From the NCBI RefSeq assembly GCF_055900595.2, contig NZ_CM148325.1: a stretch of DNA of 64,000 nt; one strand, given 5' to 3'. The translations under genes and the position numbers were made by a program. The notes under the pieces are model-generated. The model was given only the letters and a program-made list of their open reading frames with translations. It was not told the origin of the DNA and did not search any database. Of the stretch, positions 5,989 through 28,930 are shown piece after piece (position 1 is the first letter of the stretch; the number at the start of each line of letters is the position of its first letter).

Positions 5989-7440
5989 TCATTCACGCCA
6001 GAAAGTCGGGGTAAAGAGCACCAGCAATGTAAAGACCTCGAGACGACCAAACAGCATATTGGCAATCAGGATCCATTTAGCCACCGGGTTCATACTGGTA
6101 AAGTTATCAGCAACCACGCCAAGCCCTGGCCCCAGGTTATTCAATGTCGCAACAACCGAGGCAAAGGCAGAAAAGTCATCCACACCCGTGGCGATAATCG
6201 CCAGCATACTGACGATAAACACCAGGGCATAAGCGGAGAAAAATCCCCAAACAGCTTCGAGGATACGTTCCGGCAGTGCGCGATTCCCCAGCTTAATGCT
6301 GTAAACGGCGTTCGGATGCACCAGTCGTTTCAGCTCACGGTTCCCCTGCTTAAACAGCAGCAGAATGCGGATCACTTTCAGGCCACCGCCCGTAGACCCG
6401 GCGCAACCGCCAATAAATGCTGAACATAAAAGCAGTACCGGCAAAAAGAGCGGCCAGCGGGCAATGCTGTCAGTCGTAAACCCGGCGGTTGTCGCCATCG
6501 ACACCACCTGGAAAAACGCCTGGTTAATTGTCATCAGCGCCGAACTATAGACATTATGAAACCACAGCACGAGGGTACAAATAACCACCAGCGTAAACTG
6601 TACGCCGATAAACATGCGAAATTCCGGATCGCGCCAATAAACCTTCAGACTACGCCCACTTAACAGCGAAAAGTGCAGACCGTAGTTACAGCCGGAGATC
6701 AGCAGGAAGATAGCAATGATAGTGTTAATAGTCGGGCTGTCGAAATAACCGATACTGGCATCATGTGTCGAGAAGCCGCCAATAGCGATAGTCGCAAAGC
6801 TATGGCCGATGGCATCAAAGGCATCCATTCCGGCAAACCACAACGCCAGCGCACAGGCGACGGTCAGCAAGACATAAATCAACCACAGGGTTTTCGCCGT
6901 TTCCGCAATTCGCGGGCGCATTTTGTTATCTTTCAGCGGGCCGGGCATTTCCGCGCGATAGAGCTGCATCCCACCCACGCCGAGGATAGGCAGTATCGCA
7001 ACCGCCAACACGATGATCCCCATCCCGCCAAACCATTGCAGCATCTGGCGATAAAAGAGGATTGCGTGAGGAAGTGTATCCAGTCCCACCAGCGTAGTGG
7101 CCCCCGTGGTAGTCAGACCGGAGAAAGATTCAAAAAACGCATCGGTAATCGTGAGGTTTGGGCTTTCCGAAAAGATAAAAGGGAGCGCACCGACGCTACC
7201 CAACACGGTCCAGAACAGCACCACTATCAGAAACCCTTCACGGGATTTCAGTTCGCCCTTTTCTTTACGGTTCGGCCACCACAGCATAGAACCAATGGCA
7301 AGGGCGACAAAAAAGGTCTGGGTAAAGGCGCGGCCCGCACCATCCCGGTAGATGAGTGCTACCAGCCCAGGGATAATCATGGTCCCTGAAAATAAGATGA
7401 CCAGTAGTCCAACAATTCGGGTAATGGCGCGAAAATGCAT
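5989..7440 (-). CDS. trkH: Trk-system potassium uptake protein
   Basis: 483-aa polytopic membrane ORF starting MHFRAITRIVGLLVILFSG…; synteny with hemG and pepQ. Confidence 0.9.
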   Translation of the reverse strand: MHFRAITRIVGLLVILFSGTMIIPGLVALIYRDGAGRAFTQTFFVALAIGSMLWWPNRKEKGELKSREGFLIVVLFWTVLGSVGALPFIFSESPNLTITDAFFESFSGLTTTGATTLVGLDTLPHAILFYRQMLQWFGGMGIIVLAVAILPILGVGGMQLYRAEMPGPLKDNKMRPRIAETAKTLWLIYVLLTVACALALWFAGMDAFDAIGHSFATIAIGGFSTHDASIGYFDSPTINTIIAIFLLISGCNYGLHFSLLSGRSLKVYWRDPEFRMFIGVQFTLVVICTLVLWFHNVYSSALMTINQAFFQVVSMATTAGFTTDSIARWPLFLPVLLLCSAFIGGCAGSTGGGLKVIRILLLFKQGNRELKRLVHPNAVYSIKLGNRALPERILEAVWGFFSAYALVFIVSMLAIIATGVDDFSAFASVVATLNNLGPGLGVVADNFTSMNPVAKWILIANMLFGRLEVFTLLVLFTPTFWRE

Positions 7441-9612: not shown

Positions 9613-11802
9613 ATGCTTTACAAAGGCGACACCCTGTACCTTGACTGGCTGGAAGATGGCATTGCCGAACTGGTATTTGATGCCCCAGGTTCAGTTAATA
9701 AACTCGACACTGCGACCGTCGCCAGCCTCGGCGAGGCCATCGGCGTGCTGGAACAGCAATCAGATTTAAAAGGGCTGCTGCTGCGTTCGAATAAAGCAGC
9801 CTTTATCGTCGGTGCTGATATCACCGAATTCTTGTCCCTGTTCCTCGTTCCTGAAGAACAGTTAAGCCAGTGGCTGCATTTTGCCAATAGCGTGTTTAAT
9901 CGCCTGGAAGATCTGCCGGTGCCGACCATTGCTGCCGTCAACGGCTATGCGCTGGGCGGTGGCTGCGAATGTGTGCTGGCGACCGATTATCGTCTGGCGA
10001 CGCCAGATCTGCGCATCGGTCTGCCGGAAACCAAACTGGGCATCATGCCGGGCTTTGGCGGTTCTGTACGTATGCCACGTATGCTCGGTGCTGATAGTGC
10101 GCTGGAAATCATTGCTGCCGGTAAAGATGTCGGCGCGGATCAGGCGCTGAAAATCGGTCTGGTGGATGGCGTAGTCAAAGCAGAAAAACTGGTTGAAGGC
10201 GCGAAGGCGATTTTACGTCAGGCCATTAACGGCGACCTCGACTGGAAAGCGAAACGTCAGCCGAAGCTGGAACCGCTAAAACTGAGCAAGATTGAAGCCA
10301 CCATGAGCTTCACCATCGCTAAAGGAATGGTCGCACAAACAGCAGGGAAACATTACCCCGCGCCCATCACCGCAGTAAAAACCATTGAAGCGGCTGCCCG
10401 TTTTGGTCGTGAAGAAGCATTAAATCTGGAAAACAAAAGTTTTGTCCCGCTGGCGCATACCAACGAAGCTCGCGCACTGGTCGGCATTTTCCTTAACGAT
10501 CAATATGTAAAAGGCAAAGCGAAGAAACTCACCAAAGACGTTGAAACCCCAAAACAGGCCGCTGTGCTGGGCGCAGGCATTATGGGCGGCGGCATTGCTT
10601 ACCAGTCTGCGTGGAAAGGCGTGCCGGTTGTCATGAAAGATATCAATGACAAGTCGTTAACCCTCGGTATGACTGAAGCCGCAAAACTGCTGAACAAGCA
10701 GCTTGAGCGCGGCAAGATCGACGGTCTGAAACTGGCTGGCGTGATCTCCACGATTCATCCAACGCTCGACTACGCCGGGTTTGACCGCGTGGATGTTGTG
10801 GTAGAAGCGGTTGTCGAAAACCCGAAAGTGAAAAAAGCCGTACTGGCAGAAACCGAGCAGAAAGTACGCCCGGATACCGTGCTGGCGTCTAACACTTCAA
10901 CCATTCCTATCAGCGAACTGGCCAACGCGCTGGAACGTCCGGAAAACTTCTGCGGGATGCACTTCTTTAACCCGGTCCACCGGATGCCGTTGGTAGAAAT
11001 AATTCGCGGCGAGAAAAGCTCCGACGAAACCATCGCGAAAGTCGTCGCCTGGGCGAGCAAGATGGGCAAAACGCCGATTGTGGTTAACGACTGCCCCGGC
11101 TTCTTTGTTAACCGCGTGCTGTTCCCCTATTTCGCCGGTTTCAGCCAGCTGCTGCGCGACGGCGCGGATTTTCGCAAGATCGACAAAGTGATGGAAAAAC
11201 AGTTCGGCTGGCCGATGGGTCCGGCATACTTGCTGGATGTCGTGGGCATTGATACCGCGCATCACGCCCAGGCAGTGATGGCAGCAGGTTTCCCGCAGCG
11301 GATGCAGAAAGATTATCGCGATGCCATCGACGCACTGTTTGATGCCAACCGTTTTGGTCAGAAGAACGGCCTTGGTTTCTGGCGTTATAAAGAAGACAGC
11401 AAAGGTAAGCCGAAGAAAGAAGAAGATGCCGCCGTTGACGACCTGCTGGCAGAAGTCAGCCAGCCGAAGCGCGATTTCAGCGAAGAAGAGATTATCGCCC
11501 GCATGATGATCCCGATGGTCAACGAAGTGGTGCGTTGTCTGGAGGAAGGCATTATCGCCACTCCGGCAGAAGCCGATATGGCACTGGTCTACGGCCTGGG
11601 CTTCCCTCCGTTCCACGGCGGCGCGTTCCGCTGGCTGGACACCCTCGGTAGCGCAAAATACCTCGATATGGCACAACAATATCAGCACCTCGGCCCGCTG
11701 TATGAAGTGCCGGAAGGTCTGCGTAATAAAGCGCGTCATAACGAACCGTACTATCCCCTGGTTGAGCCAGCCCGTCCGGTTGGCGACCTGAAAACGGCTT
11801 AA
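9613..11802 (+). CDS. fadB: fatty-acid oxidation complex alpha subunit (enoyl-CoA hydratase / 3-hydroxyacyl-CoA dehydrogenase)
   Basis: Protein from [32 protein letters not shown]…, 729 aa; the ORF track's upstream extension from 9415 is rejected. Confidence 0.93.
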
Positions 11803-18527: not shown

Positions 18528-20770
<2,243 letters not shown>

Positions 20771-20783
20771 TTCCGGTCTCCTG

Positions 20784-21539
20784 TCAGAACTTATAACCAC
20801 GATGCAGCGCCACAACCCCTGCCGTCAGGTTGTAATAGTCGACACTTTCGAATCCAGCATCCTGCATCATAGCTTTCAGGGTGTCCTGATCGGGATGCAT
20901 GCGGATAGATTCAGCAAGATAACGGTAGCTGTCAGCGTCGTTCGCGACCAGTGAGCCAATACGCGGCAGCACATGGAAGGAGTAAGCGTCATAGGCCTTA
21001 CTTAACGGCTCGATAATCGGCTTCGAGAACTCAAGCACCAGCAGTCGGCCGCCAGGTTTCAGAACGCGATACATTGAACGCAGAGCTTTATCTTTGTCAG
21101 TGACGTTACGCAGACCAAACGAAATGGTGATGCAATCAAAGGTGTTATCCGGGAACGGCAGCGCCTCAGCGTTCGCCTGAACATACTCAACGTTGCCAAT
21201 CACACCAATATTACGCAGCTTCTCGCGGCCCATTTTGAGCATGGATTCATTGATATCAGCAAGGACCACTTTGCCAGTTTCACCCACCAGGCGGGAGAAT
21301 TTCGCTGTCAGGTCGCCAGTACCGCCTGCCAGATCCAGCACGGTCTGCCCACGGCGTACGCCGCTGCAATCAATCGTGAAGCGTTTCCACAAACGATGTA
21401 TGCCAAAAGACATCAAATCATTCATGACATCGTATTTCGATGCCACGGAATGGAAAACGTGAGCGACCATATCCGCTTTTTGTTCCTTCGCGACGGTCTG
21501 AAAACCAAAGTGCGTCGTTTCTTGTGACTTATCCACCAT
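20784..21539 (-). CDS. ubiE: demethylmenaquinone / 2-methoxy-6-polyprenyl-benzoquinol C-methyltransferase
   Basis: 251 aa starting [30 protein letters not shown]…; SAM-binding motif LDLAGGTGD. Confidence 0.93.
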
Positions 21540-21633
21540 CTCAATGCCTGCTCATCAAAAAATTGTTCCAGAAGTGTAACAGATTGGGCGTCGATGCCCT
21601 AGATTTCTACCCGGCTTAACTACCCCCAATGGG

Positions 21634-23061
21634 CTAGCGCGACTGCTGATTATATTCATCATCGCGTTGATAAGCTTCATCATTCGGCTGCTCCGGAACC
21701 GACCGCAGTCGATACTCTTCATCCTGGCTCACCGCTTGTTCAGCCAAATCCGGATTAATCTCGCGTTTAATTTCTACCCCTAAACCGCGAAACGCTTCTG
21801 CTTGCGCCAGCACATTTCCGCGACCTGAAGAGAGTTTTTTCATTGCCTGACGATAGTTGTCCTGTGCTTTGTCCAGACTTTGACCAATCGCGGACATATC
21901 ATCGACAAACAAGCGCATTTTGTCGTACAACTTGCTGGCGCGATCGGCTATTTTCTGGGCGTTACGACTTTGATGCTCATAGCGCCAGAGGTTGGCGATA
22001 GTGCGCAGCGCCACCAGCAGCGTGGTCGGGCTAACCAGCATGATATTGTTTTTCAACGCTTCGGTGATCAGCTCCGGCTGGCGGTCAAGCGCCAGTAAAA
22101 AAGCGGGTTCAACGGGAATAAACATCAGCACGTAATCCAGGGTTCGCAGCCCCGGCAGCTGTTGATAATCTTTGCGTCCCAGCAAACGGATATGGTTACG
22201 CACCGACGCGATATGTTCCTGTAGCGCGCTTTCGCGGGTGTAGTCGTCTTCTGCGTTGAAATAGCGTTCATAGGCGACCAGCGTCATTTTTGCGTCGATC
22301 ACCACAACTTTGCCCTGCGGCAGCCGCACGATGACATCCGGCTGCATCCGCGAGCGGGCGTCATTTTCGATGCTGACCTGGGTTTCATATTCATACCCTT
22401 CACGCAGACCGGAAGCCTCCAGCACACGCGTCAATACTACCTCGCCCCAGTTGCCCTGGGTTTTATTGTCGCCTTTCAGCGCACGCGTCAGGTTGATCGC
22501 TTCCTGGGCCATTTGCGCGTTGAGCTGCTGGAGATTGCGTATTTCGTGAGTCAGGGTATGGCGTTCTTGTGCTTCTTTACCGAAACTGTCCTGAACCTGA
22601 CGACGAAAACCGTCCAGTTGTTCACGTAGTGGCGACAACAGGCTGTTCAGACTCTGACGGTTTTGCTCATCAACCCGGCGATTGCTGTGCTCGAAAATAC
22701 GGTTGGCGAGGTTTTCAAACTGCTCACTGAGGCGCTGTTCGCTGTTGATCATTTGGCGAATTTTATCGTCAGCATGTTGCTGTACGGCCTCCATTCGCGT
22801 GGTGACCTCACGCAGATCCGCCTCCAGCGAGGTGTTAATGCTTTGCAGACTGCGCACTTCATTATTGAGTAACTCGCACTCAGCACGCCAATGTTCGCTT
22901 TGGGTAATTTGTTGTTTTGCCGCACTTAACTCCGCGACCATCTCTTCACGTTCAGCGAATTGCTCGGCTTTTTGCTGCGCATGCTGATAACTGGCAATCA
23001 GCCAGCCAATCGCCACGCTCACCAACGCAATAACTGCGTAAACCATGATTGAGATATCCAC
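21634..23061 (-). CDS. rmuC: DNA recombination protein RmuC
   Basis: Coiled-coil protein with N-terminal TM segment; start placed at the GTG (VDISIMVYAVIALV…) giving 475 aa; the ORF is open up to 23154. Confidence 0.8.
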   Translation of the reverse strand: MDISIMVYAVIALVSVAIGWLIASYQHAQQKAEQFAEREEMVAELSAAKQQITQSEHWRAECELLNNEVRSLQSINTSLEADLREVTTRMEAVQQHADDKIRQMINSEQRLSEQFENLANRIFEHSNRRVDEQNRQSLNSLLSPLREQLDGFRRQVQDSFGKEAQERHTLTHEIRNLQQLNAQMAQEAINLTRALKGDNKTQGNWGEVVLTRVLEASGLREGYEYETQVSIENDARSRMQPDVIVRLPQGKVVVIDAKMTLVAYERYFNAEDDYTRESALQEHIASVRNHIRLLGRKDYQQLPGLRTLDYVLMFIPVEPAFLLALDRQPELITEALKNNIMLVSPTTLLVALRTIANLWRYEHQSRNAQKIADRASKLYDKMRLFVDDMSAIGQSLDKAQDNYRQAMKKLSSGRGNVLAQAEAFRGLGVEIKREINPDLAEQAVSQDEEYRLRSVPEQPNDEAYQRDDEYNQQSR

Positions 23062-23179
23062 AACGCCTCCAGCCTCATTACTTACCCGCACAAAATAGAA
23101 TTGTGCTGTACAAACGTCCAGTTTGAAAGAAGTTTCCTGCGAGGCGCTACGCAAAACGATCCTTAATTTTTATTATTTT

Positions 23180-23215
23180 ATCCCACAATATGAGACGTAG
23201 TTTATATTGTGGGAT
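23180..23215. promoter_or_regulatory. perfect 12-bp inverted repeat (ATCCCACAATAT-N12-ATATTGTGGGAT), candidate operator
   Basis: Arms at 23180-23191 and 23204-23215 are exact reverse complements; located about 60 bp upstream of the IclR-family regulator ATG. Confidence 0.5.
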
Positions 23216-23276
23216 ATATCACCTTTTCCCCACGTCATTATGTGGAACACTTCAGCAATATCATCAGGAGAAACGT

Positions 23277-24044
23277 ATGGCAGATACCTCTTCAACCACC
23301 GCTGGCGCACAAACGTTATTACGCGGGCTGGCGGTTCTTAATGCTGTTTATAACGGCTGCCATGACCTGAAAAGTATCGGCGAGTTCACCGGCACGACCC
23401 GGAGCACAACCCATCGTTTAGTCACCGTTCTGGTGGAACAACGCTACCTGCGCCACGTCCCAACGCAGGGCTACCAACTGGGCGCCAAACTGATCGAATT
23501 CGGTGCCAGAGCACTGGAAAGCACCTCGCTGTACGAAGTTGCGCTGCCCGTTTTGCAGCGTCTGGCCCGTTACACCCTGGACACCGTGCATCTGGGGATC
23601 GTTGAAGGCGGCGAAGTGCTGTATCTGGAGAAGATCAACAGTCAGCGTGGGCTGGAAATGCGCTCACGCCCAGGCCATCGCATGCCACTGGCAATCACCG
23701 GCATCGGCAAGGCATTGATCCTCAACCGAACAGAAGAAGAGTGGCGCACGCTGTTTAAGACCTGTGGTGATGAAACAAAACTGGGCACATTTATTCAGAA
23801 CATGCGTCGTTATGCCGCCAGTGGTTTTGCTTTTGATCTGGAAGAGAACGAGCCGACTATCCGTTGCGTTGCAGCGCCGGTTTACAACGCCCGGGATGAA
23901 ATTGTGGCGGCTATTTCTGTCGCCAGTACCACTACGTATATGTCACTGGCGCGTCTGGAAGAACTGGCACCTTACGTCAAATCCTGTGCAGAAGAGATAT
24001 CCGCTGAACTGGGCTGGGGTAAGCACGTCCACAAAAATAAATAA
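23277..24044 (+). CDS. IclR-family transcriptional regulator
   Basis: 255 aa from MADTSSTTAGAQTLLRGLAVLNAV…; N-terminal wHTH and C-terminal effector domain pattern of IclR/KdgR-like regulators; RBS AGGAGA upstream of ATG 23277. Confidence 0.75.
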   Translation: MADTSSTTAGAQTLLRGLAVLNAVYNGCHDLKSIGEFTGTTRSTTHRLVTVLVEQRYLRHVPTQGYQLGAKLIEFGARALESTSLYEVALPVLQRLARYTLDTVHLGIVEGGEVLYLEKINSQRGLEMRSRPGHRMPLAITGIGKALILNRTEEEWRTLFKTCGDETKLGTFIQNMRRYAASGFAFDLEENEPTIRCVAAPVYNARDEIVAAISVASTTTYMSLARLEELAPYVKSCAEEISAELGWGKHVHKNK

Positions 24045-24067
24045 ACCATGACTAAAGGAAACGGCTA

Positions 24068-25072
24068 ATGTCGGGAAACACCTCATTTATTGCCCTGGAC
24101 TGGGGAACGTCATCGCTTCGGGCATGGCGTTTTGGCGACTCACCCAATCCACAAGAAAAACGTGAATTCCCGTGGGGGATCATGAAATTACCCTCCCAGG
24201 CAGCAACACGTGAGGACGCTTTCCACGATACGTTTTTACGTGTCTGCGGCGACTGGCTGGCACAATCCCAATGCCCGGTTCTGGCTTGCGGCATGATCGG
24301 CAGTGCGCAAGGGTGGCAACCCGCAGCTTATTTACCTTGCCCGGTCACTCTCGAGGGTCTGGCAAAGCAGTTGACGCCTGTTATCTACCAGCAGCAGACA
24401 ATGCTGCACATCATTCCCGGCGTGATTAAAGAAGGTGAAATGCCCGAAGTGATGCGTGGCGAAGAGACACAAATCTTCGGTGCTATCTCGATGGAACCGG
24501 CCCTGCAAAACGCGATCCGCCAGGGTATGCCTGTGCTGATTGGCTTACCTGGCACACATGCGAAATGGGCGGTAGTTGAAAACAACACCATTACCGATTT
24601 CCGAACCTTTATGACAGGCGAGTTATTTGATGTTTTATCCCGCCATTCGATTCTCGGTGCCACCATGCGTTCGGGAGATGAACCGCACTGGGATGCCTTC
24701 ACCCATGGGCTGAAATCAGCACAAGAGCATCATCAGACCGGATTATTATCGACGCTGTTTTCGACCCGTTCGCGCCTGCTGACCAGTAATCTTACGCCGT
24801 CCTCGCAGGGGGATTACCTTTCAGGATTACTGATAGGCCATGAATTATGCGGTCTGGCATCCAGTTTGCTACGTGATTTACCCGCCACAACACCGATCGC
24901 CTTAATCGGTAGCGCCACTCTGAACAGCCGCTATTCACAAGCATTCAGCCACGTTTTTCCCGACAGACAGCTACACGCCATTCCTAATGCCACTGAACAG
25001 GGGTTATGGCGAATCGCCCACGCTGCCGGGCTACTCTCCACCAACGCCAGGGAATGTACTCATGCCATTTAA
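24068..25072 (+). CDS. 2-dehydro-3-deoxygalactonokinase-like sugar-acid kinase (DgoK family)
   Basis: 334 aa; blocks shared with E. coli DgoK as recalled: IALDWGTSSLRAW, MRGEETQIFGA, PGTHAKWAVV, DFRTFMTGELFDVLSRHSILGA, SGLLIG. Confidence 0.7.
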   Translation: MSGNTSFIALDWGTSSLRAWRFGDSPNPQEKREFPWGIMKLPSQAATREDAFHDTFLRVCGDWLAQSQCPVLACGMIGSAQGWQPAAYLPCPVTLEGLAKQLTPVIYQQQTMLHIIPGVIKEGEMPEVMRGEETQIFGAISMEPALQNAIRQGMPVLIGLPGTHAKWAVVENNTITDFRTFMTGELFDVLSRHSILGATMRSGDEPHWDAFTHGLKSAQEHHQTGLLSTLFSTRSRLLTSNLTPSSQGDYLSGLLIGHELCGLASSLLRDLPATTPIALIGSATLNSRYSQAFSHVFPDRQLHAIPNATEQGLWRIAHAAGLLSTNARECTHAI

Positions 25073-25691
25073 TACGCTTTTGCAAAAAACCGGGTTAGTC
25101 GCCATTTTACGCGGCGTGAAACCGGATGAGATTGTCGCCATCGGTGAAAAGCTGTATGCCGCTGGATTTCGCCTGATTGAGATTCCCATGAACTCGCCGG
25201 AGCCGTTGCAAAGTATCAGTTTACTGCGCGACGCCCTGCCTAAGGACTGCCTGGTCGGAGCCGGAACTGTGCTTTCGGTGGAGCAAGTCGTCGCGGTTAA
25301 AGAGGCTGGAGGCCAGATTATCGTAATGCCGCATTGCGATACTGCGGTGATCCGTCGTGCCCGTGCGCTGGGTATGTATTGTGCGCCTGGCGTCGCTACG
25401 CCCACCGAAGCTTTTGCTGCCATTGAACATGGCGCCAATGCCATCAAGCTGTTCCCGGCTGAACAAATTACGCCTGAAGTCACCAAAGCCTGGCGTGCGG
25501 TTATTCCACAATCCGTTCCGATGTTACCGGTTGGCGGTATCACTCCAGACACAATGGCGCGTTATCTGAGCCACGGCGCAAACGGCTTTGGCCTCGGTTC
25601 TGCGCTATATCGCCCCGGCATGACGCCAGAGCAAGTCTATGAAAATGCAGTACTGTTTATGAACGCATGGAACAATTTAAATAGCAAATAA
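25062..25691 (+). CDS. KDPG/KDPGal-type class I aldolase (DgoA/Eda family)
   Basis: 209 aa from MPFNTLLQKTGLVAILRGVKPDE…; LIEIPMNSP, GAGTVLSVEQV and VGGITPD blocks parallel DgoA; overlaps the kinase stop by 11 bp. Confidence 0.7.
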   Translation: MPFNTLLQKTGLVAILRGVKPDEIVAIGEKLYAAGFRLIEIPMNSPEPLQSISLLRDALPKDCLVGAGTVLSVEQVVAVKEAGGQIIVMPHCDTAVIRRARALGMYCAPGVATPTEAFAAIEHGANAIKLFPAEQITPEVTKAWRAVIPQSVPMLPVGGITPDTMARYLSHGANGFGLGSALYRPGMTPEQVYENAVLFMNAWNNLNSK

Positions 25692-25715
25692 CTGATAAAT
25701 AAGGATATAAAAGCA

Positions 25716-26690
25716 ATGATAAAACATCTTACCTTACCGAAAAAAATGGCTGCAATGGTACTTCTTGCCGGCGCTGCCCTCAGCACTGCGCCTGTGCAGG
25801 CGGCCTCCTGGCCAACCAAACAGATCGAGTTAGTCGTACCCTACGCGGCCGGAGGCGGTACGGATCTGGTTGCCCGTGCCTTTGCTGATGCCGCCAAAAA
25901 CCATTTGCCCGTCAGCATCGGGGTTATCAATAAACCTGGCGGTGGCGGCGCTATCGGCCTGAGTGAAATCGCCGCTGCCCGCCCTAACGGTTACAAAATG
26001 GGTTTAGGCACGGTTGAACTGACCACCCTTCCCAGTCTCGGAATGGTGCGTTTTAAAACCAGCGACTTTAAACCCATTGCCCGTCTGAATGCGGATCCGG
26101 CTGCTATCACCGTCCGTGCCGATGCACCGTGGAATAGCTATGAAGAATTTATGACTTACGCCAAAGCGAATCCCGGAAAAGTACGCATTGGTAACTCAGG
26201 CACCGGAGCAATCTGGCATCTGGCGGCAGCTGCACTGGAAGACAAAACGGGCGTGAAGTTTTCTCATGTCCCATATGACGGCGCAGCCCCTGCCATTACA
26301 GGCCTGTTAGGCGGGCATATTGAAGCGGTTTCCGTAAGCCCAGGTGAAGTTATCAATCATGTGAAAGGCGGCAAGCTGAAGACACTGGTAGTGATGGCGG
26401 ATGAACATATGAAAACCATGCCTGACGTACCGACGTTAAAAGAGAAAGGCGTTGATCTCTCCATCGGCACCTGGCGCGGCCTGATTGTGTCGCAAAAAAC
26501 GCCGCAGGATGTGGTGGATGTTCTGGCAAAGGCAGCAAAAGAGACGGCTGAAGAGCCTGCATTCCAGGATGCGCTGCAAAAGTTGAATCTCAACTATGCA
26601 TGGCTTGATGGTGCCAGCTTCCAGACCCAAATCAACGAGCAGGAAAAGTACTTTGACGAGCTGCTGACTCGCCTGGGCCTGAAAAAATAA
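25716..26690 (+). CDS. tripartite tricarboxylate transporter (TTT) periplasmic substrate-binding protein, TctC/Bug family
   Basis: 324 aa; signal peptide MIKHLTLPKKMAAMVLLAGAALSTAPVQA; family assignment from overall sequence character and the adjacent TctB/TctA-like genes. Confidence 0.7.
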   Translation: MIKHLTLPKKMAAMVLLAGAALSTAPVQAASWPTKQIELVVPYAAGGGTDLVARAFADAAKNHLPVSIGVINKPGGGGAIGLSEIAAARPNGYKMGLGTVELTTLPSLGMVRFKTSDFKPIARLNADPAAITVRADAPWNSYEEFMTYAKANPGKVRIGNSGTGAIWHLAAAALEDKTGVKFSHVPYDGAAPAITGLLGGHIEAVSVSPGEVINHVKGGKLKTLVVMADEHMKTMPDVPTLKEKGVDLSIGTWRGLIVSQKTPQDVVDVLAKAAKETAEEPAFQDALQKLNLNYAWLDGASFQTQINEQEKYFDELLTRLGLKK

Positions 26691-26706
26691 TCCCGAGGTA
26701 CGGTCG

Positions 26707-27213
26707 ATGAACACAAAACAGTCTGTTGCTCAACTCGCCGTACCGCACCGCAAGCGCCTTTCATCCACTGTGGTGGTGGCGCTGTTACTTTGTGTGGTTG
26801 CTGGCGCGGTGATAATTAATGCCGCTGATTTTCCAGCAACTGCCATTGAAACGGATCCCGGTGCAAGTGCCTTCCCTACTTTCTATGCCTGCGCTCTGAT
26901 TGTGCTCGCTGTCTTACTTGTGATACGCGATCTTTTGCTGGCAAAACCAGTCCCTTGCGCCAACGCACAGGAAAAACCGGCATTCAGGAAAACGGCAACA
27001 GGAATTGCGGCAACCGCGTTTTATATCGTGGCAATGAGCTACTGCGGTTATCTCATTACTACTCCTGTTTTCCTCATCGTCATTATGGCATTGATGGGCT
27101 ACAGGCGATGGGTACTCACACCGGGTATTGCGCTGCTGTTAACGGCAATCCTCTGGTTGCTGTTTGTCGAAGCGTTACAGGTGCCATTGCCTGTCGGCAC
27201 ATTTTTCGAATAA
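26707..27213 (+). CDS. TTT small membrane subunit (TctB-like)
   Basis: 168-aa hydrophobic four-TM-type protein between the TctC-like and TctA-like genes. Confidence 0.6.
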   Translation: MNTKQSVAQLAVPHRKRLSSTVVVALLLCVVAGAVIINAADFPATAIETDPGASAFPTFYACALIVLAVLLVIRDLLLAKPVPCANAQEKPAFRKTATGIAATAFYIVAMSYCGYLITTPVFLIVIMALMGYRRWVLTPGIALLLTAILWLLFVEALQVPLPVGTFFE

Positions 27214-27225
27214 CAGGGGCCTGCA

Positions 27226-28716
27226 ATGTTTGAAAGTGAACTTTTAACTCAGGGGTTTTCGACATTACTCAGTAATCCTCAGGCGCTGCTGTTTGCCACG
27301 TTTGGAGTGATGCTGGGTATTATGATTGGCGCTCTGCCTGGCCTGACAGCGACCATGGGTGTGGCGATTTTGCTGCCTTTCACCTACGGCATGGAGCCTG
27401 TTTCTGGCTTGTTGATGATTTGCGGTGTCTTTTTTGGTGGTGTGTATGGTGGTTCTATCACCGCAATTTTGCTCAAAATTCCCGGTACGCCTGCCGCCGC
27501 TGCCACCGCCATTGACGGATATGAGCTGACGAAGCAGGGAAAAGCCGGGCTGGCGTTAAGTGCCGCCACGTTCTCTTCTTTTAGCGGTGGAACGCTCAGC
27601 ATTATCGTATTGATGTTTCTCTCTCCGGTACTTGCCAGTTGGGCGTTGAAATTTAGTGCCTCGGAGTCCTTCGCCCTGGCAACCTTCGGACTGAGCATTA
27701 TTGCCAGTATTTCCGGTGAGTCACTGATTAAAGGGCTGATTGCCGGGGTTGGCGGATTGCTTATCGCAACGATAGGCCTTGATCCAATGGGCGGTTTTCC
27801 ACGCTTTACAGGTGGATTTGTGGAGCTGATGAATGTGCCATTTATCCCGGTGATGATTGGTTTATTTGCTGCTTCAGAAGCATTCCGCTCTATGGAGCAA
27901 AACCAGCAAATTCGTCAGGGGGCGAAGGTGGCTATCGGCAGTCTGTTACTGCCCTGGCAAACACTACGCCGCATCGCATTAACCATTTTGCGCTCATCAG
28001 GATTAGGGGTTTTTATCGGCATGATCCCCGGTGCGGGGGCAGATATTGCAGCTTTTGTTGCCTATAACGAAACTCGTCGTTTCAGTAAGACGCCTGAAAA
28101 CTTTGGTAAGGGTGAGATTAAGGCGGTGGCCTCCTGTGAGGCAGGCGCGAATGGCTGCACCGGTGGCGCATTGTTACCTATGCTGACGTTGGGGATCCCA
28201 GGCGATGCGGTAACTGCCATCATGCTGGGCGCGTTAACGTTACAAGGGATGCAGCCAGGCCCACTTATGTTTACCGACCACGGCGATATGGTTTATACGC
28301 TGTTTGTCGGCATGATCTTTTGTTACTTCATGCTGCTAGTTCTTGGACTGCTCTCTTTGAAAGTCATCGGTAACGTGGTGAAGATCCCCGGCAATATTCT
28401 CACGCCGATGATCCTCGCACTTTGTGTGGTCGGGACTTATGCGCTGAACAATAGCCTGTTTGATGTTGGCATTATGCTGATTGCAGGCGTGGTGGGCTAT
28501 TTCATGCAAAAAGGGGGGTATCCGGCATCACCCGTAGTGCTGGCATTGATTATGGGGCCAATGGCGGAAAGTAATTTTCGCCGTGCGCTGTCGCTTTCTG
28601 GTGGGTCACTCGACTTTCTGTATACCCGACCGATAACCCTGGCATTGCTGACACTGGCAGCCTTTACGCTACTGACGCCAATAATACGCAAAATTATGCG
28701 CTTACGGCGTCAGTAA
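27226..28716 (+). CDS. TTT large permease subunit (TctA-like)
   Basis: 496-aa polytopic membrane protein; glycine-rich blocks typical of TctA. Confidence 0.7.
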   Translation: MFESELLTQGFSTLLSNPQALLFATFGVMLGIMIGALPGLTATMGVAILLPFTYGMEPVSGLLMICGVFFGGVYGGSITAILLKIPGTPAAAATAIDGYELTKQGKAGLALSAATFSSFSGGTLSIIVLMFLSPVLASWALKFSASESFALATFGLSIIASISGESLIKGLIAGVGGLLIATIGLDPMGGFPRFTGGFVELMNVPFIPVMIGLFAASEAFRSMEQNQQIRQGAKVAIGSLLLPWQTLRRIALTILRSSGLGVFIGMIPGAGADIAAFVAYNETRRFSKTPENFGKGEIKAVASCEAGANGCTGGALLPMLTLGIPGDAVTAIMLGALTLQGMQPGPLMFTDHGDMVYTLFVGMIFCYFMLLVLGLLSLKVIGNVVKIPGNILTPMILALCVVGTYALNNSLFDVGIMLIAGVVGYFMQKGGYPASPVVLALIMGPMAESNFRRALSLSGGSLDFLYTRPITLALLTLAAFTLLTPIIRKIMRLRRQ

Positions 28717-28770
28717 TTGATATCGCTCCCCGACGTTGGGGAGTATGAGACTGATGACAAACGCTAAATT

Positions 28771-28868
28771 GCCTGATGCGCTGCGCTTATCAGGCCTACC
28801 ACAGAAATGCAATATATTGAATTTGCATGCTTTTGTAGGCCGGATAAGGCGATCACGCCGCATCCGGC
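28771..28868. repeat. REP palindromic unit pair
   Basis: GCCTGATGCGCTGCGCTTATCAGGCCTAC … GTAGGCCGGATAAGGCGATCACGCCGCATCCGGC. Confidence 0.75.
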
Positions 28869-28895
28869 ATGAACAAAGCACACGTTAACAACAAT

Positions 28896-28930
28896 CGGAA
28901 TGCTCCCCTAAGCCAGGGAGCGTTTTTTAT
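28896..28930 (+). terminator. rho-independent terminator after the transporter operon
   Basis: GCTCCCCtaagccaGGGAGCG followed by TTTTTTATTT. Confidence 0.55.

What the first reader, a model, noticed from the sequence alone, without database searches (positions are those of the whole stretch)
24068..25691. Kinase and aldolase genes overlap by 11 bp and no dehydratase is present in the cluster
The aldolase ATG at 25062 lies inside the kinase 3' end (stop at 25070-25072), indicating tight translational coupling. The canonical dgo operon encodes a dehydratase (DgoD) that makes the 2-keto-3-deoxy acid from the aldonate. Here there is none, so either the imported substrate is already a 2-keto-3-deoxy acid or a dehydratase is encoded elsewhere.
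Basis: inference. Interest (0 to 1): 0.5.

Follow-up and report, generated by a model that had tools for sequence, protein, structure and literature searches.

The report
Keto-deoxy sugar acid salvage islet
This is a six-gene accessory operon found in about a quarter of E. coli strains (including BL21 and B2 pathogens, but not K-12); it pairs a high-affinity acid transporter with a kinase and an aldolase, and most likely lets the cell scavenge an already-dehydrated sugar acid, so the missing dehydratase is by design.

Summary
The aldolase ATG at 25062 lies 11 bp inside the kinase gene (stop at 25070-25072), and none of the six genes encodes a dehydratase.

- **The overlap is ordinary.** K-12 dgoK and dgoA overlap by 17 bp.
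- **The locus.** It is a 5.8-kb islet (23157-28928) between rmuC and udp: iclR, a DGOK-family kinase, a KDPGal-type aldolase and tctCBA. It occurs in 1456 of 5426 complete E. coli genomes and is under purifying selection.
- **A dehydratase exists elsewhere.** The same genome carries an intact dgoRKADT operon, with its own kinase and aldolase.
- **The same module is widespread and never includes a dehydratase.** It sits at rmuC/udp in Buttiauxella, Klebsiella and Phytobacter, and elsewhere in Brenneria, Enterobacter and alpha- and beta-proteobacteria. A six-frame search with seven dehydratases found none in 28 such loci. D-galactonate operons that use an MFS transporter do carry dgoD.
- **Context of relatives.** Proteobacterial relatives add a reductase 65-83% identical to the alginate DEH reductase A1-R. 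Firmicute relatives of the binding protein sit next to KdgK/Eda or KduI.

Best reading (about 0.55): the transporter imports a ready-made 2-keto-3-deoxy-hexonate, probably KDGal, which is phosphorylated and cleaved. This would be an analogue of kdgT-kdgK-eda. The main rival (about 0.25) is D-galactonate uptake with DgoD acting in trans. The substrate has not been tested.

The parts
23157..28928 (+). Whole accessory islet between rmuC and udp. It replaces a 43-bp segment of K-12.
   Evidence: blastn of the K-12 rmuC-udp region against the window. Homology stops at 23156 and resumes at 28929. GC content of 51-54% matches the flanks. No flanking repeats or mobility genes were found.
23179..23216 (.). 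Putative operator of the islet's IclR regulator: perfect 13-bp inverted repeat TATCCCACAATAT / ATATTGTGGGATA with a 12-bp spacer.
   Evidence: Inverted-repeat scan. Related TCCCAC-ATnTGGGA palindromes lie upstream of the orthologous iclR in Buttiauxella, Klebsiella, Phytobacter, Brenneria, Enterobacter, Rhodoferax, Azospirillum, Skermanella, Spirabiliibacterium, Achromobacter and Burkholderia. Binding has not been tested.
23277..24044 (+). IclR-family transcriptional regulator, 255 aa (RefSeq start; the longest ORF starts at 23190).
   Evidence: RefSeq annotation. NCBIfam matches to BhcR, KdgR, PcaR and IclR are all below their cut-offs. The orthologue carries Pfam HTH_IclR + IclR_C. dN/dS 0.16-0.17.
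24068..25072 (+). DGOK-family sugar-acid kinase, 334 aa.
   Evidence: Pfam PF05035, E 2.2e-89, residues 11-316. 35% identical to K-12 DgoK and 47-49% to Burkholderia and Achromobacter DgoK. PDB 3R1X and 3T69 match at E 1e-36. dN/dS 0.26-0.27.
25049..25053 (+). Shine-Dalgarno-like AGGGA for the aldolase, inside the kinase coding sequence.
   Evidence: Read directly from the sequence; 8 nt upstream of the ATG at 25062.
25062..25072 (+). 11-bp kinase/aldolase overlap (ATG at 25062 to TAA at 25070-25072).
   Evidence: The same overlap is annotated in BL21(DE3), NC101 and Buttiauxella.
25062..25691 (+). KDPGal-type class I aldolase, 209 aa.
   Evidence: NCBIfam NF006600 at 322.9 bits against a cut-off of 207. 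46% identical to K-12 DgoA, with the E37, K126 and A11-I12 equivalents conserved. Val at the DgoA-V154 stereoselectivity position (PMC4915726). dN/dS 0.04-0.06.
25716..26690 (+). TctC/Bug periplasmic solute-binding protein, 324 aa, with an N-terminal signal peptide (..APVQA|AS).
   Evidence: PDB 4X9T at E 3e-99. PDB 25HK at E 1e-63; this is the Vibrio TTT-C that binds unsaturated alginate oligosaccharides (PMC13390454). 82-87% identical in Buttiauxella, Phytobacter and Klebsiella, and 57-66% in alpha- and beta-proteobacteria and Brevibacillus.
26707..27213 (+). TctB small membrane subunit, 168 aa.
   Evidence: RefSeq annotation. The orthologue carries Pfam PF07331.
27226..28716 (+). TctA large permease subunit, 496 aa.
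   Evidence: RefSeq annotation. The orthologue carries Pfam PF01970. dN/dS 0.01.
28897..28926 (+). Terminator-like hairpin followed by a T-run, between the convergent tctA and udp genes.
   Evidence: Consensus scan: 11-pair stem, 5 G-C pairs, T-rich tail.

Best explanation
The islet is one autoregulated operon: iclR, kinase, aldolase, tctC, tctB, tctA. It works as a self-contained salvage module for a sugar acid that is already at the 2-keto-3-deoxy level.

**Proposed mechanism**
1. The periplasmic TctC protein captures the acid, and TctAB imports it.
2. The DGOK-family kinase phosphorylates it at C6.
3. The KDPGal-type aldolase splits the product into pyruvate and glyceraldehyde 3-phosphate.
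4. The IclR repressor, bound at the palindrome 23179-23216, is released by the substrate or its phosphate.

The most likely substrate is 2-keto-3-deoxy-D-galactonate (KDGal). A closely related keto-deoxy or 4-deoxy-5-keto-uronate is possible.

No dehydratase is needed. This mirrors kdgT-kdgK-eda under KdgR, which needs none for exogenous KDG (established knowledge).

The start/stop overlap keeps aldolase synthesis tied to kinase synthesis, which limits build-up of the toxic phosphorylated intermediate.

**Shown versus inferred.** Shown: gene content, family assignments, conservation, selection, and absence of a dehydratase. Inferred: the substrate, the effector, the operator function and the coupling.
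For: 1. **Family assignments.** The kinase is DGOK family. The aldolase exceeds the KDPGal-aldolase cut-off and carries both stereoselectivity determinants of DgoA: A-I in strand beta-1 and Val at V154 (PMC4915726).
2. **Conserved six-gene module.** The same genes sit between rmuC and udp in Buttiauxella, Klebsiella spallanzanii and Phytobacter, with kinase identity of only 49-59%. They also occur elsewhere in Brenneria and Enterobacter.
3. **No dehydratase in relatives.** Six-frame tblastn with seven dehydratases from the four known sugar-acid dehydratase families found none in 9 Enterobacterales, 14 alpha/beta-proteobacterial, 2 Pasteurellaceae/Vibrionaceae and 3 clostridial loci.
4. **Contrast with galactonate operons.** Clusters that clearly start from D-galactonate carry dgoD plus an MFS transporter: K-12 dgoRKADT and Achromobacter iclR | dgoK-dgoA-dgoD-MFS.
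5. **Context of related binding proteins.** Binding proteins 50-66% identical sit in Firmicute modules made only of TctCBA, a PfkB KDG/KDGal-like kinase and an Eda-type aldolase, or in modules with KduI. The nearest ligand-characterised relative binds unsaturated uronate oligosaccharides and not citrate.
6. **Reductase in proteobacterial relatives.** These add a co-regulated reductase 65-83% identical to DEH reductase A1-R, which makes a 2-keto-3-deoxy-hexonate by reduction rather than dehydration.
7. **Redundancy argument.** The same genome has a complete dgoRKADT, whose repressor responds specifically to D-galactonate (PMC11705089). A second kinase, aldolase and regulator therefore make sense only for a substrate that does not induce dgo.
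8. **The genes are functional.** All six are intact, with dN/dS of 0.01-0.27 between divergent E. coli alleles.
Against: - No ligand, enzyme activity or phenotype is known for any member of this module.
- Burkholderia galactose clusters with a closely related IclR-DgoK-DgoA trio also lack a dehydratase locally and must use one in trans. Absence from a cluster is therefore not proof.
- One TTT locus, in Robertmurraya (binding protein 47% identical), does carry dgoD.
- A published reconstruction predicted D-galactonate as the substrate of an IclR-DgoK-TTT locus (PMC5507952).
- The residues predicted to line the binding pocket do not separate the dgoD-linked locus from the others.
- A1-R chemistry would yield KDG (4S), whereas the aldolases look KDPGal-type (4R). 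This mismatch is unexplained.
- A natural source of free KDGal in the gut is not established.
Confidence: 0.55

Rival explanations
1. The TTT system is a high-affinity D-galactonate importer. Dehydration is done in trans by the core DgoD, and the islet kinase and aldolase duplicate DgoK and DgoA.
For: - dgoD is present in the same genome and in nearly all E. coli (5424 of 5426 genomes match).
- Burkholderia De Ley-Doudoroff clusters with the closest IclR-DgoK-DgoA relatives lack a local dehydratase.
- Leyn et al. predicted D-galactonate uptake for an IclR-DgoK-TTT locus (PMC5507952).
- The Robertmurraya locus links a 47%-identical TTT to dgoD.
- The kinase and aldolase are galactonate-pathway types.
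Against: - D-galactonate would induce dgoKAD through DgoR anyway. A second kinase, aldolase and regulator would then be redundant, yet they are kept intact under purifying selection and across genera.
- None of 25 proteobacterial TTT-linked loci carries dgoD, whereas the MFS-linked galactonate operons do.
- Relatives of the binding protein associate with keto-deoxy and unsaturated-uronate metabolism.
Confidence: 0.25
2. The imported compound is a 4-deoxy-5-hexosulose uronate (DEH- or DKI-like) or an unsaturated uronate released by polysaccharide lyases of other gut microbes. It is reduced by an unlinked E. coli reductase before the kinase acts.
For: - In alpha-, beta- and gamma-proteobacterial relatives the module includes a reductase 65-83% identical to A1-R, under the same operator.
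- In Enterobacter a divergent Fe-ADH-type aldehyde reductase and a second DGOK gene flank the module.
- In Viridibacterium the A1-R-like gene lies next to two PL1 pectate lyases.
- The Vibrio TTT-C binds unsaturated alginate products.
Against: - The E. coli, Buttiauxella, Klebsiella, Phytobacter and Brenneria modules lack any reductase.
- Stereochemistry (my derivation): reduction of DEH gives KDG, and reduction of DKI gives L-KDGal. Neither is the D-KDGal expected for a DgoK/DgoA-type pair.
- E. coli already has KduI and KduD for DKI (established knowledge).
Confidence: 0.12
3. The cluster is a decaying or chimeric remnant. Either it is a dgo-like operon that lost its dehydratase, or it is a tricarboxylate transporter that merely sits next to an unrelated kinase-aldolase pair.
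For: - The islet is absent from about 73% of E. coli genomes.
- The kinase is the least constrained gene (dN/dS 0.27).
Against: - All six genes are intact in three divergent alleles, with dN/dS well below 1.
- The same gene set and order are kept from E. coli to Rhodoferax and Azospirillum, together with a conserved operator.
- Intergenic gaps of 12-24 nt indicate a single operon.
Confidence: 0.04

Closest known systems
E. coli dgoRKADT operon (D-galactonate catabolism, lower De Ley-Doudoroff pathway)
   Same: A DGOK-family kinase is followed by an overlapping KDPGal-type aldolase (17-bp overlap in K-12, 11 bp here). The end products would be the same, pyruvate and glyceraldehyde 3-phosphate.
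   Different: - Only 35% (kinase) and 46% (aldolase) identity.
- No DgoD.
- A TTT transporter instead of the MFS DgoT.
- An IclR-type regulator instead of the GntR/FadR-type DgoR.
- A strain-variable islet rather than a core operon.
KdgR regulon kdgT-kdgK-eda of E. coli and Dickeya, and B. subtilis kdgRKAT (direct uptake of 2-keto-3-deoxygluconate)
   Same: The logic is the same: transporter, kinase and aldolase under a repressor, with no dehydratase, for an exogenous keto-deoxy acid. KdgR is also IclR-family.
   Different: - Different protein families throughout: TTT versus KdgT, DGOK versus PfkB kinase, a Val-type versus a Thr-type aldolase.
- The regulator scores only 123 bits against the KdgR model, whose cut-off is 275.
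Vibrio sp. C42 TTT for unsaturated alginate oligosaccharides (PDB 25HK; PMC13390454)
   Same: It is the nearest ligand-characterised relative of the binding protein (E 1e-63). The Gly24-Thr25-Asp26, Pro104, Thr225 and Arg227 equivalents are conserved.
   Different: - It lies in an alginate utilisation locus with lyases, KdgF, DehR, KdgK and Eda.
- Ser164 and Glu165 are Ala and Pro in E. coli.
- E. coli has no lyase or reductase in the islet.
IclR(GalR)-DgoK-TTT locus predicted in Salinivirga fredricksonii HL-109 (PMC5507952)
   Same: The same combination of an IclR regulator, DgoK and a TTT transporter.
   Different: That work predicted D-galactonate as substrate from context alone. Nothing was tested, and the E. 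coli islet was not discussed.
IclR-dgoK-dgoA clusters of Burkholderia, Pararobbsia and Achromobacter
   Same: These are the closest relatives of the regulator (53-57%), kinase (47-49%) and aldolase (58-61%), with a similar operator motif.
   Different: They are coupled to an ABC sugar transporter plus sugar dehydrogenase and lactonase (Burkholderia), or to dgoD plus an MFS transporter (Achromobacter). None is coupled to a TTT.

Membership tests
Canonical dgo operon (DgoR-K-A-D-T) | DGOK-family 2-dehydro-3-deoxygalactonokinase | tested here: met
   Pfam PF05035, E 2.2e-89, full-length match. 35% identical to K-12 DgoK.
Canonical dgo operon (DgoR-K-A-D-T) | KDPGal aldolase with the Schiff-base Lys, the Glu, and the DgoA-type stereoselectivity residues | tested here: met
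   NF006600 at 322.9 bits against a cut-off of 207. The E37, K126, A11-I12 and V154 equivalents are present.
Canonical dgo operon (DgoR-K-A-D-T) | D-galactonate dehydratase DgoD (enolase superfamily) in the operon | tested here: not met
   No hit to DgoD, ManD or five other dehydratases in window 13001-39000. There is no spare domain in any of the six proteins.
Canonical dgo operon (DgoR-K-A-D-T) | MFS transporter DgoT and GntR/FadR repressor DgoR | tested here: not met
   The transporter is TctCBA and the regulator is IclR-family.
KdgR-type keto-deoxy-acid salvage (kdgT-kdgK-eda) | KdgR orthologue, KdgT permease, PfkB-family KdgK, and Eda with Thr161 | tested here: not met
   The KdgR model scores 123 bits against a cut-off of 275. 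The kinase is DGOK, not PfkB. The aldolase has Val at the Thr161 position.
KdgR-type keto-deoxy-acid salvage (kdgT-kdgK-eda) | Direct uptake and use of an exogenous 2-keto-3-deoxy acid | not testable with these tools
   This needs growth, binding and enzyme assays.
Tripartite tricarboxylate transporter (TTT, TctCBA) | Periplasmic TctC/Bug binding protein together with TctB and TctA membrane subunits encoded side by side | tested here: met
   TctC matches PDB 4X9T at E 3e-99 and other Bug proteins. The close E. coli homologue P0121 carries PF03401. The Buttiauxella orthologues carry PF03401, PF07331 and PF01970. RefSeq names all three subunits.
Tripartite tricarboxylate transporter (TTT, TctCBA) | Tricarboxylate (citrate) substrate | not testable with these tools
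   The context and the nearest characterised relative argue against citrate: Vibrio TTT-C did not bind citrate.
DEH-reductase-linked uronate module (A1-R type) | A1-R-like SDR reductase in the cluster | tested here: not met
   It is present in alpha-, beta- and gamma-proteobacterial relatives. It is absent from the E. coli, Buttiauxella, Klebsiella, Phytobacter and Brenneria modules.

The most novel reading that the evidence does not exclude
The E. coli islet is the stripped-down form of an unrecognised, widespread pathway. In that pathway a TTT transporter takes up keto-deoxy or 4-deoxy-5-keto sugar acids released by other microbes' polysaccharide lyases or galactan degraders. The acids are fed, in many proteobacteria through an A1-R-type reductase, into a DgoK/DgoA-type lower pathway instead of KdgK/Eda.

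This would imply one of two things. Either there is an unknown stereochemical route, or DGOK kinases and 'KDPGal-type' aldolases are misassigned as galactonate-specific.

It would also make the islet a cross-feeding niche determinant that separates B2/ExPEC and B-lineage E. coli from K-12-like strains.
Probability: 0.2. Interest if true: 0.65.

Novelty: new variant of a known kind. Interest (0 to 1): 0.42.

Why it matters
- **An unexplained E. coli TTT transporter.** TTT transporters are rare in E. coli and this one has no known substrate. In the searchable literature the islet has been noted only as '6 ORFs with unknown functions' between udp and rmuC (PMC3349570).
- **Strain distribution.** It separates BL21(DE3), NC101, ST131 and APEC strains from K-12. 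It could therefore explain strain-specific carbon-source use in the gut or in fermenters.
- **Easy to test.** The prediction can be checked with standard laboratory strains.
- **Caution for annotation.** The comparative data show that the labels 'galactonokinase' and 'KDPGal aldolase' co-occur with uronate-type reductases. Their assumed specificity may need revisiting.

Tried and rejected
- **Fused or hidden dehydratase.** Rejected. Domain coverage leaves no room, and six-frame tblastn was negative.
- **Recent horizontal acquisition or mobile element.** No support. GC content equals the flanks. There are no flanking repeats or integrase. dS of the islet genes is similar to that of rmuC, ubiE and udp. 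The same insertion site is used in other genera.
- **Regulatory RNA.** Rfam found only EsrE, inside ubiJ.
- **Promoter.** The consensus scan gave no + strand promoter upstream of iclR, and fewer hits than shuffled sequence. The promoter remains unmapped.
- **Binding-pocket residues.** I compared the positions mapped in Vibrio TTT-C. An Asn164 variant tracks many but not all reductase-containing loci. E. coli shares the Ala164/Gly224 variant with the Firmicute loci and with the dgoD-linked locus, so this does not discriminate substrates.
- **Genomic context of A1-R itself.** The PDB sequence has no contig on record. Its 83% relative has an uninformative context.
- **PDB 4X9T.** It belongs to a different 'orphan Bug' context group.
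- **Literature.** Searches for the islet, for TTT with keto-deoxy acids, and for fitness data found no characterisation. Cooper 1978, on 2-oxo-3-deoxygalactonate use by K-12, is cited by others but is not held.
- **An apparent 'enolase-like' ORF cluster (c15).** It turned out to be ABC ATPases.
Full report
**1. Observation**

The kinase ORF runs from 24068 to 25072 and ends with TAA at 25070-25072. The aldolase ATG is at 25062 in a different frame, so the two genes overlap by 11 bp. An AGGGA motif lies 8 nt upstream of that ATG.

RefSeq annotates the same coordinates in a 100% identical genome, strain E200086. It does the same in BL21(DE3) and NC101. The longer ORF from 24987 adds 25 residues that have no counterpart in K-12 DgoA.

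The overlap is real but ordinary. In K-12, dgoK and dgoA overlap by 17 bp, and dgoR/dgoK and dgoA/dgoD by 4 bp each. Among orthologous modules the junction varies from an 11-bp or 8-bp overlap to gaps of 6-41 nt.

**2. What the locus is**

The window is E. coli chromosome. The genes form a 5.77-kb islet, 23157-28928, inserted between rmuC and udp, where K-12 has 43 bp. Its content is:

- an IclR-family regulator (23277-24044);
- a DGOK-family kinase (Pfam E 2e-89);
- an aldolase that passes NCBI's KDPGal-aldolase model (323 bits against a cut-off of 207);
- TctC, TctB and TctA of a tripartite tricarboxylate transporter.

The gaps between the genes are 23, -11, 24, 16 and 12 nt. A terminator-like hairpin follows tctA. 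I infer a single operon from this.

The islet is present in 1456 of 5426 complete E. coli genomes, including BL21(DE3), NC101, an ST131 strain and APEC strains, but not K-12. It was noted once before, as 'a small islet of 6 ORFs with unknown functions' (PMC3349570).

Several features argue that it is old and functional:

- GC content equals the flanks.
- There are no mobility signatures.
- Synonymous divergence resembles that of the flanking core genes, and dN/dS is 0.01-0.27 for all six genes.

**3. Is there a dehydratase?**

There is none in the islet. Domain matches fill the proteins. Six-frame tblastn with UxaA, GarD, UxuA, Edd, an IlvD/EDD protein, ManD and DgoD is negative.

One is encoded elsewhere. 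The same genome carries an intact dgoRKADT operon, and that operon is in 5424 of 5426 genomes. The islet is therefore a second, divergent kinase/aldolase pair (35% and 46% identity to DgoK and DgoA). It is not a truncated copy of the only pathway.

**4. Comparative genomics**

I examined kinase and binding-protein homologues, their contigs and 80 loci from a species-level genome scan. I mapped these with my own ORF/BLAST pipeline. The loci fall into the following groups.

| Group | Taxa | Binding-protein identity to E. coli | Gene content |
|---|---|---|---|
| A | Buttiauxella, Klebsiella spallanzanii, Phytobacter (at rmuC/udp) | 82-87% | The same six genes |
| A' | Brenneria, Enterobacter (other sites) | 62-64% | The same six genes |
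| B | Rhodoferax, Azospirillum, Skermanella, Acetobacteraceae, Aquincola and others | 57-66% | The six genes, usually with a divergent SDR gene and/or an SMP-30/lactonase-like gene |
| C | Spirabiliibacterium, Photobacterium pectinilyticum | 56% | The same parts, rearranged |
| D | Firmicutes | 52-66% | IclR-TctCBA, a PfkB KDG/KDGal-like kinase and an Eda-type aldolase |
| E | Clostridia | about 50% | An aldolase, TctCBA, a DGOK-like kinase, an SDR and a bona fide KduI (395 bits against a cut-off of 250) |

None of the group A, B, C or E loci has a dehydratase within the available flanks.

The clusters that clearly start from D-galactonate do carry dgoD together with an MFS transporter. These are K-12 dgo and Achromobacter iclR | dgoK-dgoA-dgoD-MFS. 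One Bacillaceae TTT locus, with a binding protein 47% identical, also has dgoD. Burkholderia galactose clusters, whose regulator, kinase and aldolase are the closest relatives of the islet's, lack a local dehydratase.

**5. Extra clues**

- **The reductase.** The SDR of groups B and C is about 67% identical over its full length to Sphingomonas A1-R and A1-R', the DEH reductases of alginate catabolism (E 1e-105). A1-R's nearest database relatives (65-83%) come from exactly the taxa that carry the module. In Viridibacterium the A1-R-like gene lies beside two pectate lyases.
- **The binding protein.** Its second-best PDB match is Vibrio TTT-C, which binds unsaturated alginate products and not citrate.
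- **Kinase-aldolase pairing.** Every aldolase paired with a DGOK kinase has Val at the DgoA-V154 position. Every aldolase paired with a PfkB kinase has Thr, as in Eda-T161. This site affects stereoselectivity (PMC4915726).
- **A conserved operator.** A palindrome related to TCCCACnATnTGGGA lies upstream of iclR in E. coli (23179-23216) and in Buttiauxella, Klebsiella, Phytobacter, Brenneria, Enterobacter, Rhodoferax, Azospirillum, Skermanella, Spirabiliibacterium, Achromobacter and Burkholderia. This suggests an orthologous regulator with a shared effector, plausibly the common intermediate.

**6. Mechanism**

The best-supported reading is a salvage module for a sugar acid that is already dehydrated. 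TctC captures it, TctAB imports it, the kinase phosphorylates it, and the aldolase yields pyruvate and glyceraldehyde 3-phosphate. The IclR repressor would be released by the substrate or its phosphate.

KDGal is the most likely substrate on enzyme homology.

The design explains why a second regulator, kinase and aldolase are kept alongside dgo. DgoR responds specifically to D-galactonate (PMC11705089). From memory of Cooper 1978 (cited, not readable here), K-12 needs regulatory mutations to use exogenous 2-oxo-3-deoxygalactonate.

The start/stop overlap fits the need to avoid KDPGal build-up, which is growth-inhibitory in a dgoA mutant.

**7. Rivals and open problem**

The main rival is D-galactonate uptake with DgoD acting in trans. 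The Burkholderia precedent, the Robertmurraya locus and a published prediction (PMC5507952) keep it alive. A third option is uptake of a DEH- or DKI-like uronate that is reduced by an unlinked enzyme.

One problem remains unexplained. By my stereochemical derivation, A1-R chemistry gives KDG (4S) from DEH, or L-KDGal from DKI. Yet the group B and C aldolases score as KDPGal-type (290 and 241 bits against a cut-off of 207) and carry Val. One of three things must hold:

- these enzyme families are less galactonate-specific than their names imply;
- the reductase has another substrate;
- an unknown step exists.

**8. Verdict**

The 11-bp overlap is routine. The missing dehydratase is a conserved design feature of an uncharacterised accessory operon. 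Its function is predicted, not shown. It is a new variant of known keto-deoxy-acid salvage and dgo systems, of moderate interest, and easy to test in BL21 versus K-12.

Noticed in passing
window 23179-23216; L003 9103-9142; L010 about 7340-7385; L017 5668 and 5590; L008 about 9830-9880: A conserved palindromic motif (TCCCACnATnTGGGA-like, often in two copies) lies upstream of the IclR gene in every lineage of the module. In alpha- and beta-proteobacteria it abuts a TTGACA -35 box. It is probably the operator of an orthologous regulator.
   Followed up: partly
L010 6512-7288, L011 6411-7187, L022 9192-9968, L027 7734-8522: The SDR gene attached to the module in proteobacteria is 65-83% identical to Sphingomonas A1 DEH reductase A1-R, yet it is paired with KDPGal-type aldolases. 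This stereochemical mismatch is unexplained.
   Followed up: partly
window 28717-28896: About 210 bp of REP/BIME-like palindromic elements lie between tctA and the udp terminator. They are absent from BL21(DE3) and NC101, where tctA and udp are 33-34 bp apart.
   Followed up: partly
window 20784-23061 (ubiE, rmuC) compared with L096 and L097: Core genes flanking the islet differ by about 5% in nucleotides (dS 0.20-0.27) from BL21 and NC101, which is high for within-species comparisons. Only 13 of 5426 genomes carry a kinase-aldolase allele at least 99% identical to the window. The window strain belongs to a divergent lineage, or the region is recombinant.
   Followed up: no
L096 3710-9149 (BL21(DE3)): The common laboratory strain BL21(DE3) carries the intact islet, while K-12 lacks it. 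This gives a ready-made experimental pair.
   Followed up: partly
L012 5079-7258: In Enterobacter hormaechei a second, very divergent DGOK-family gene and an Fe-dependent alcohol dehydrogenase lie divergently next to the module, and a second IclR gene follows tctA.
   Followed up: no
L099 6999-12842: In Viridibacterium curvum an A1-R-like SDR sits between an IlvD/EDD-family dehydratase and two PL1 pectate lyases. This suggests the reductase family also acts on pectin-derived unsaturated uronates.
   Followed up: no
window 20165-20416 (- strand): The EsrE small RNA (Rfam RF02757, 307 bits) lies within the 3' part of ubiJ, as in K-12.
   Followed up: no
window 23190-23276: The longest iclR ORF starts 87 nt upstream of the RefSeq start and would run across the putative operator and promoter region. 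The RefSeq start at 23277, preceded by GGAGAA, is the more plausible.
   Followed up: partly
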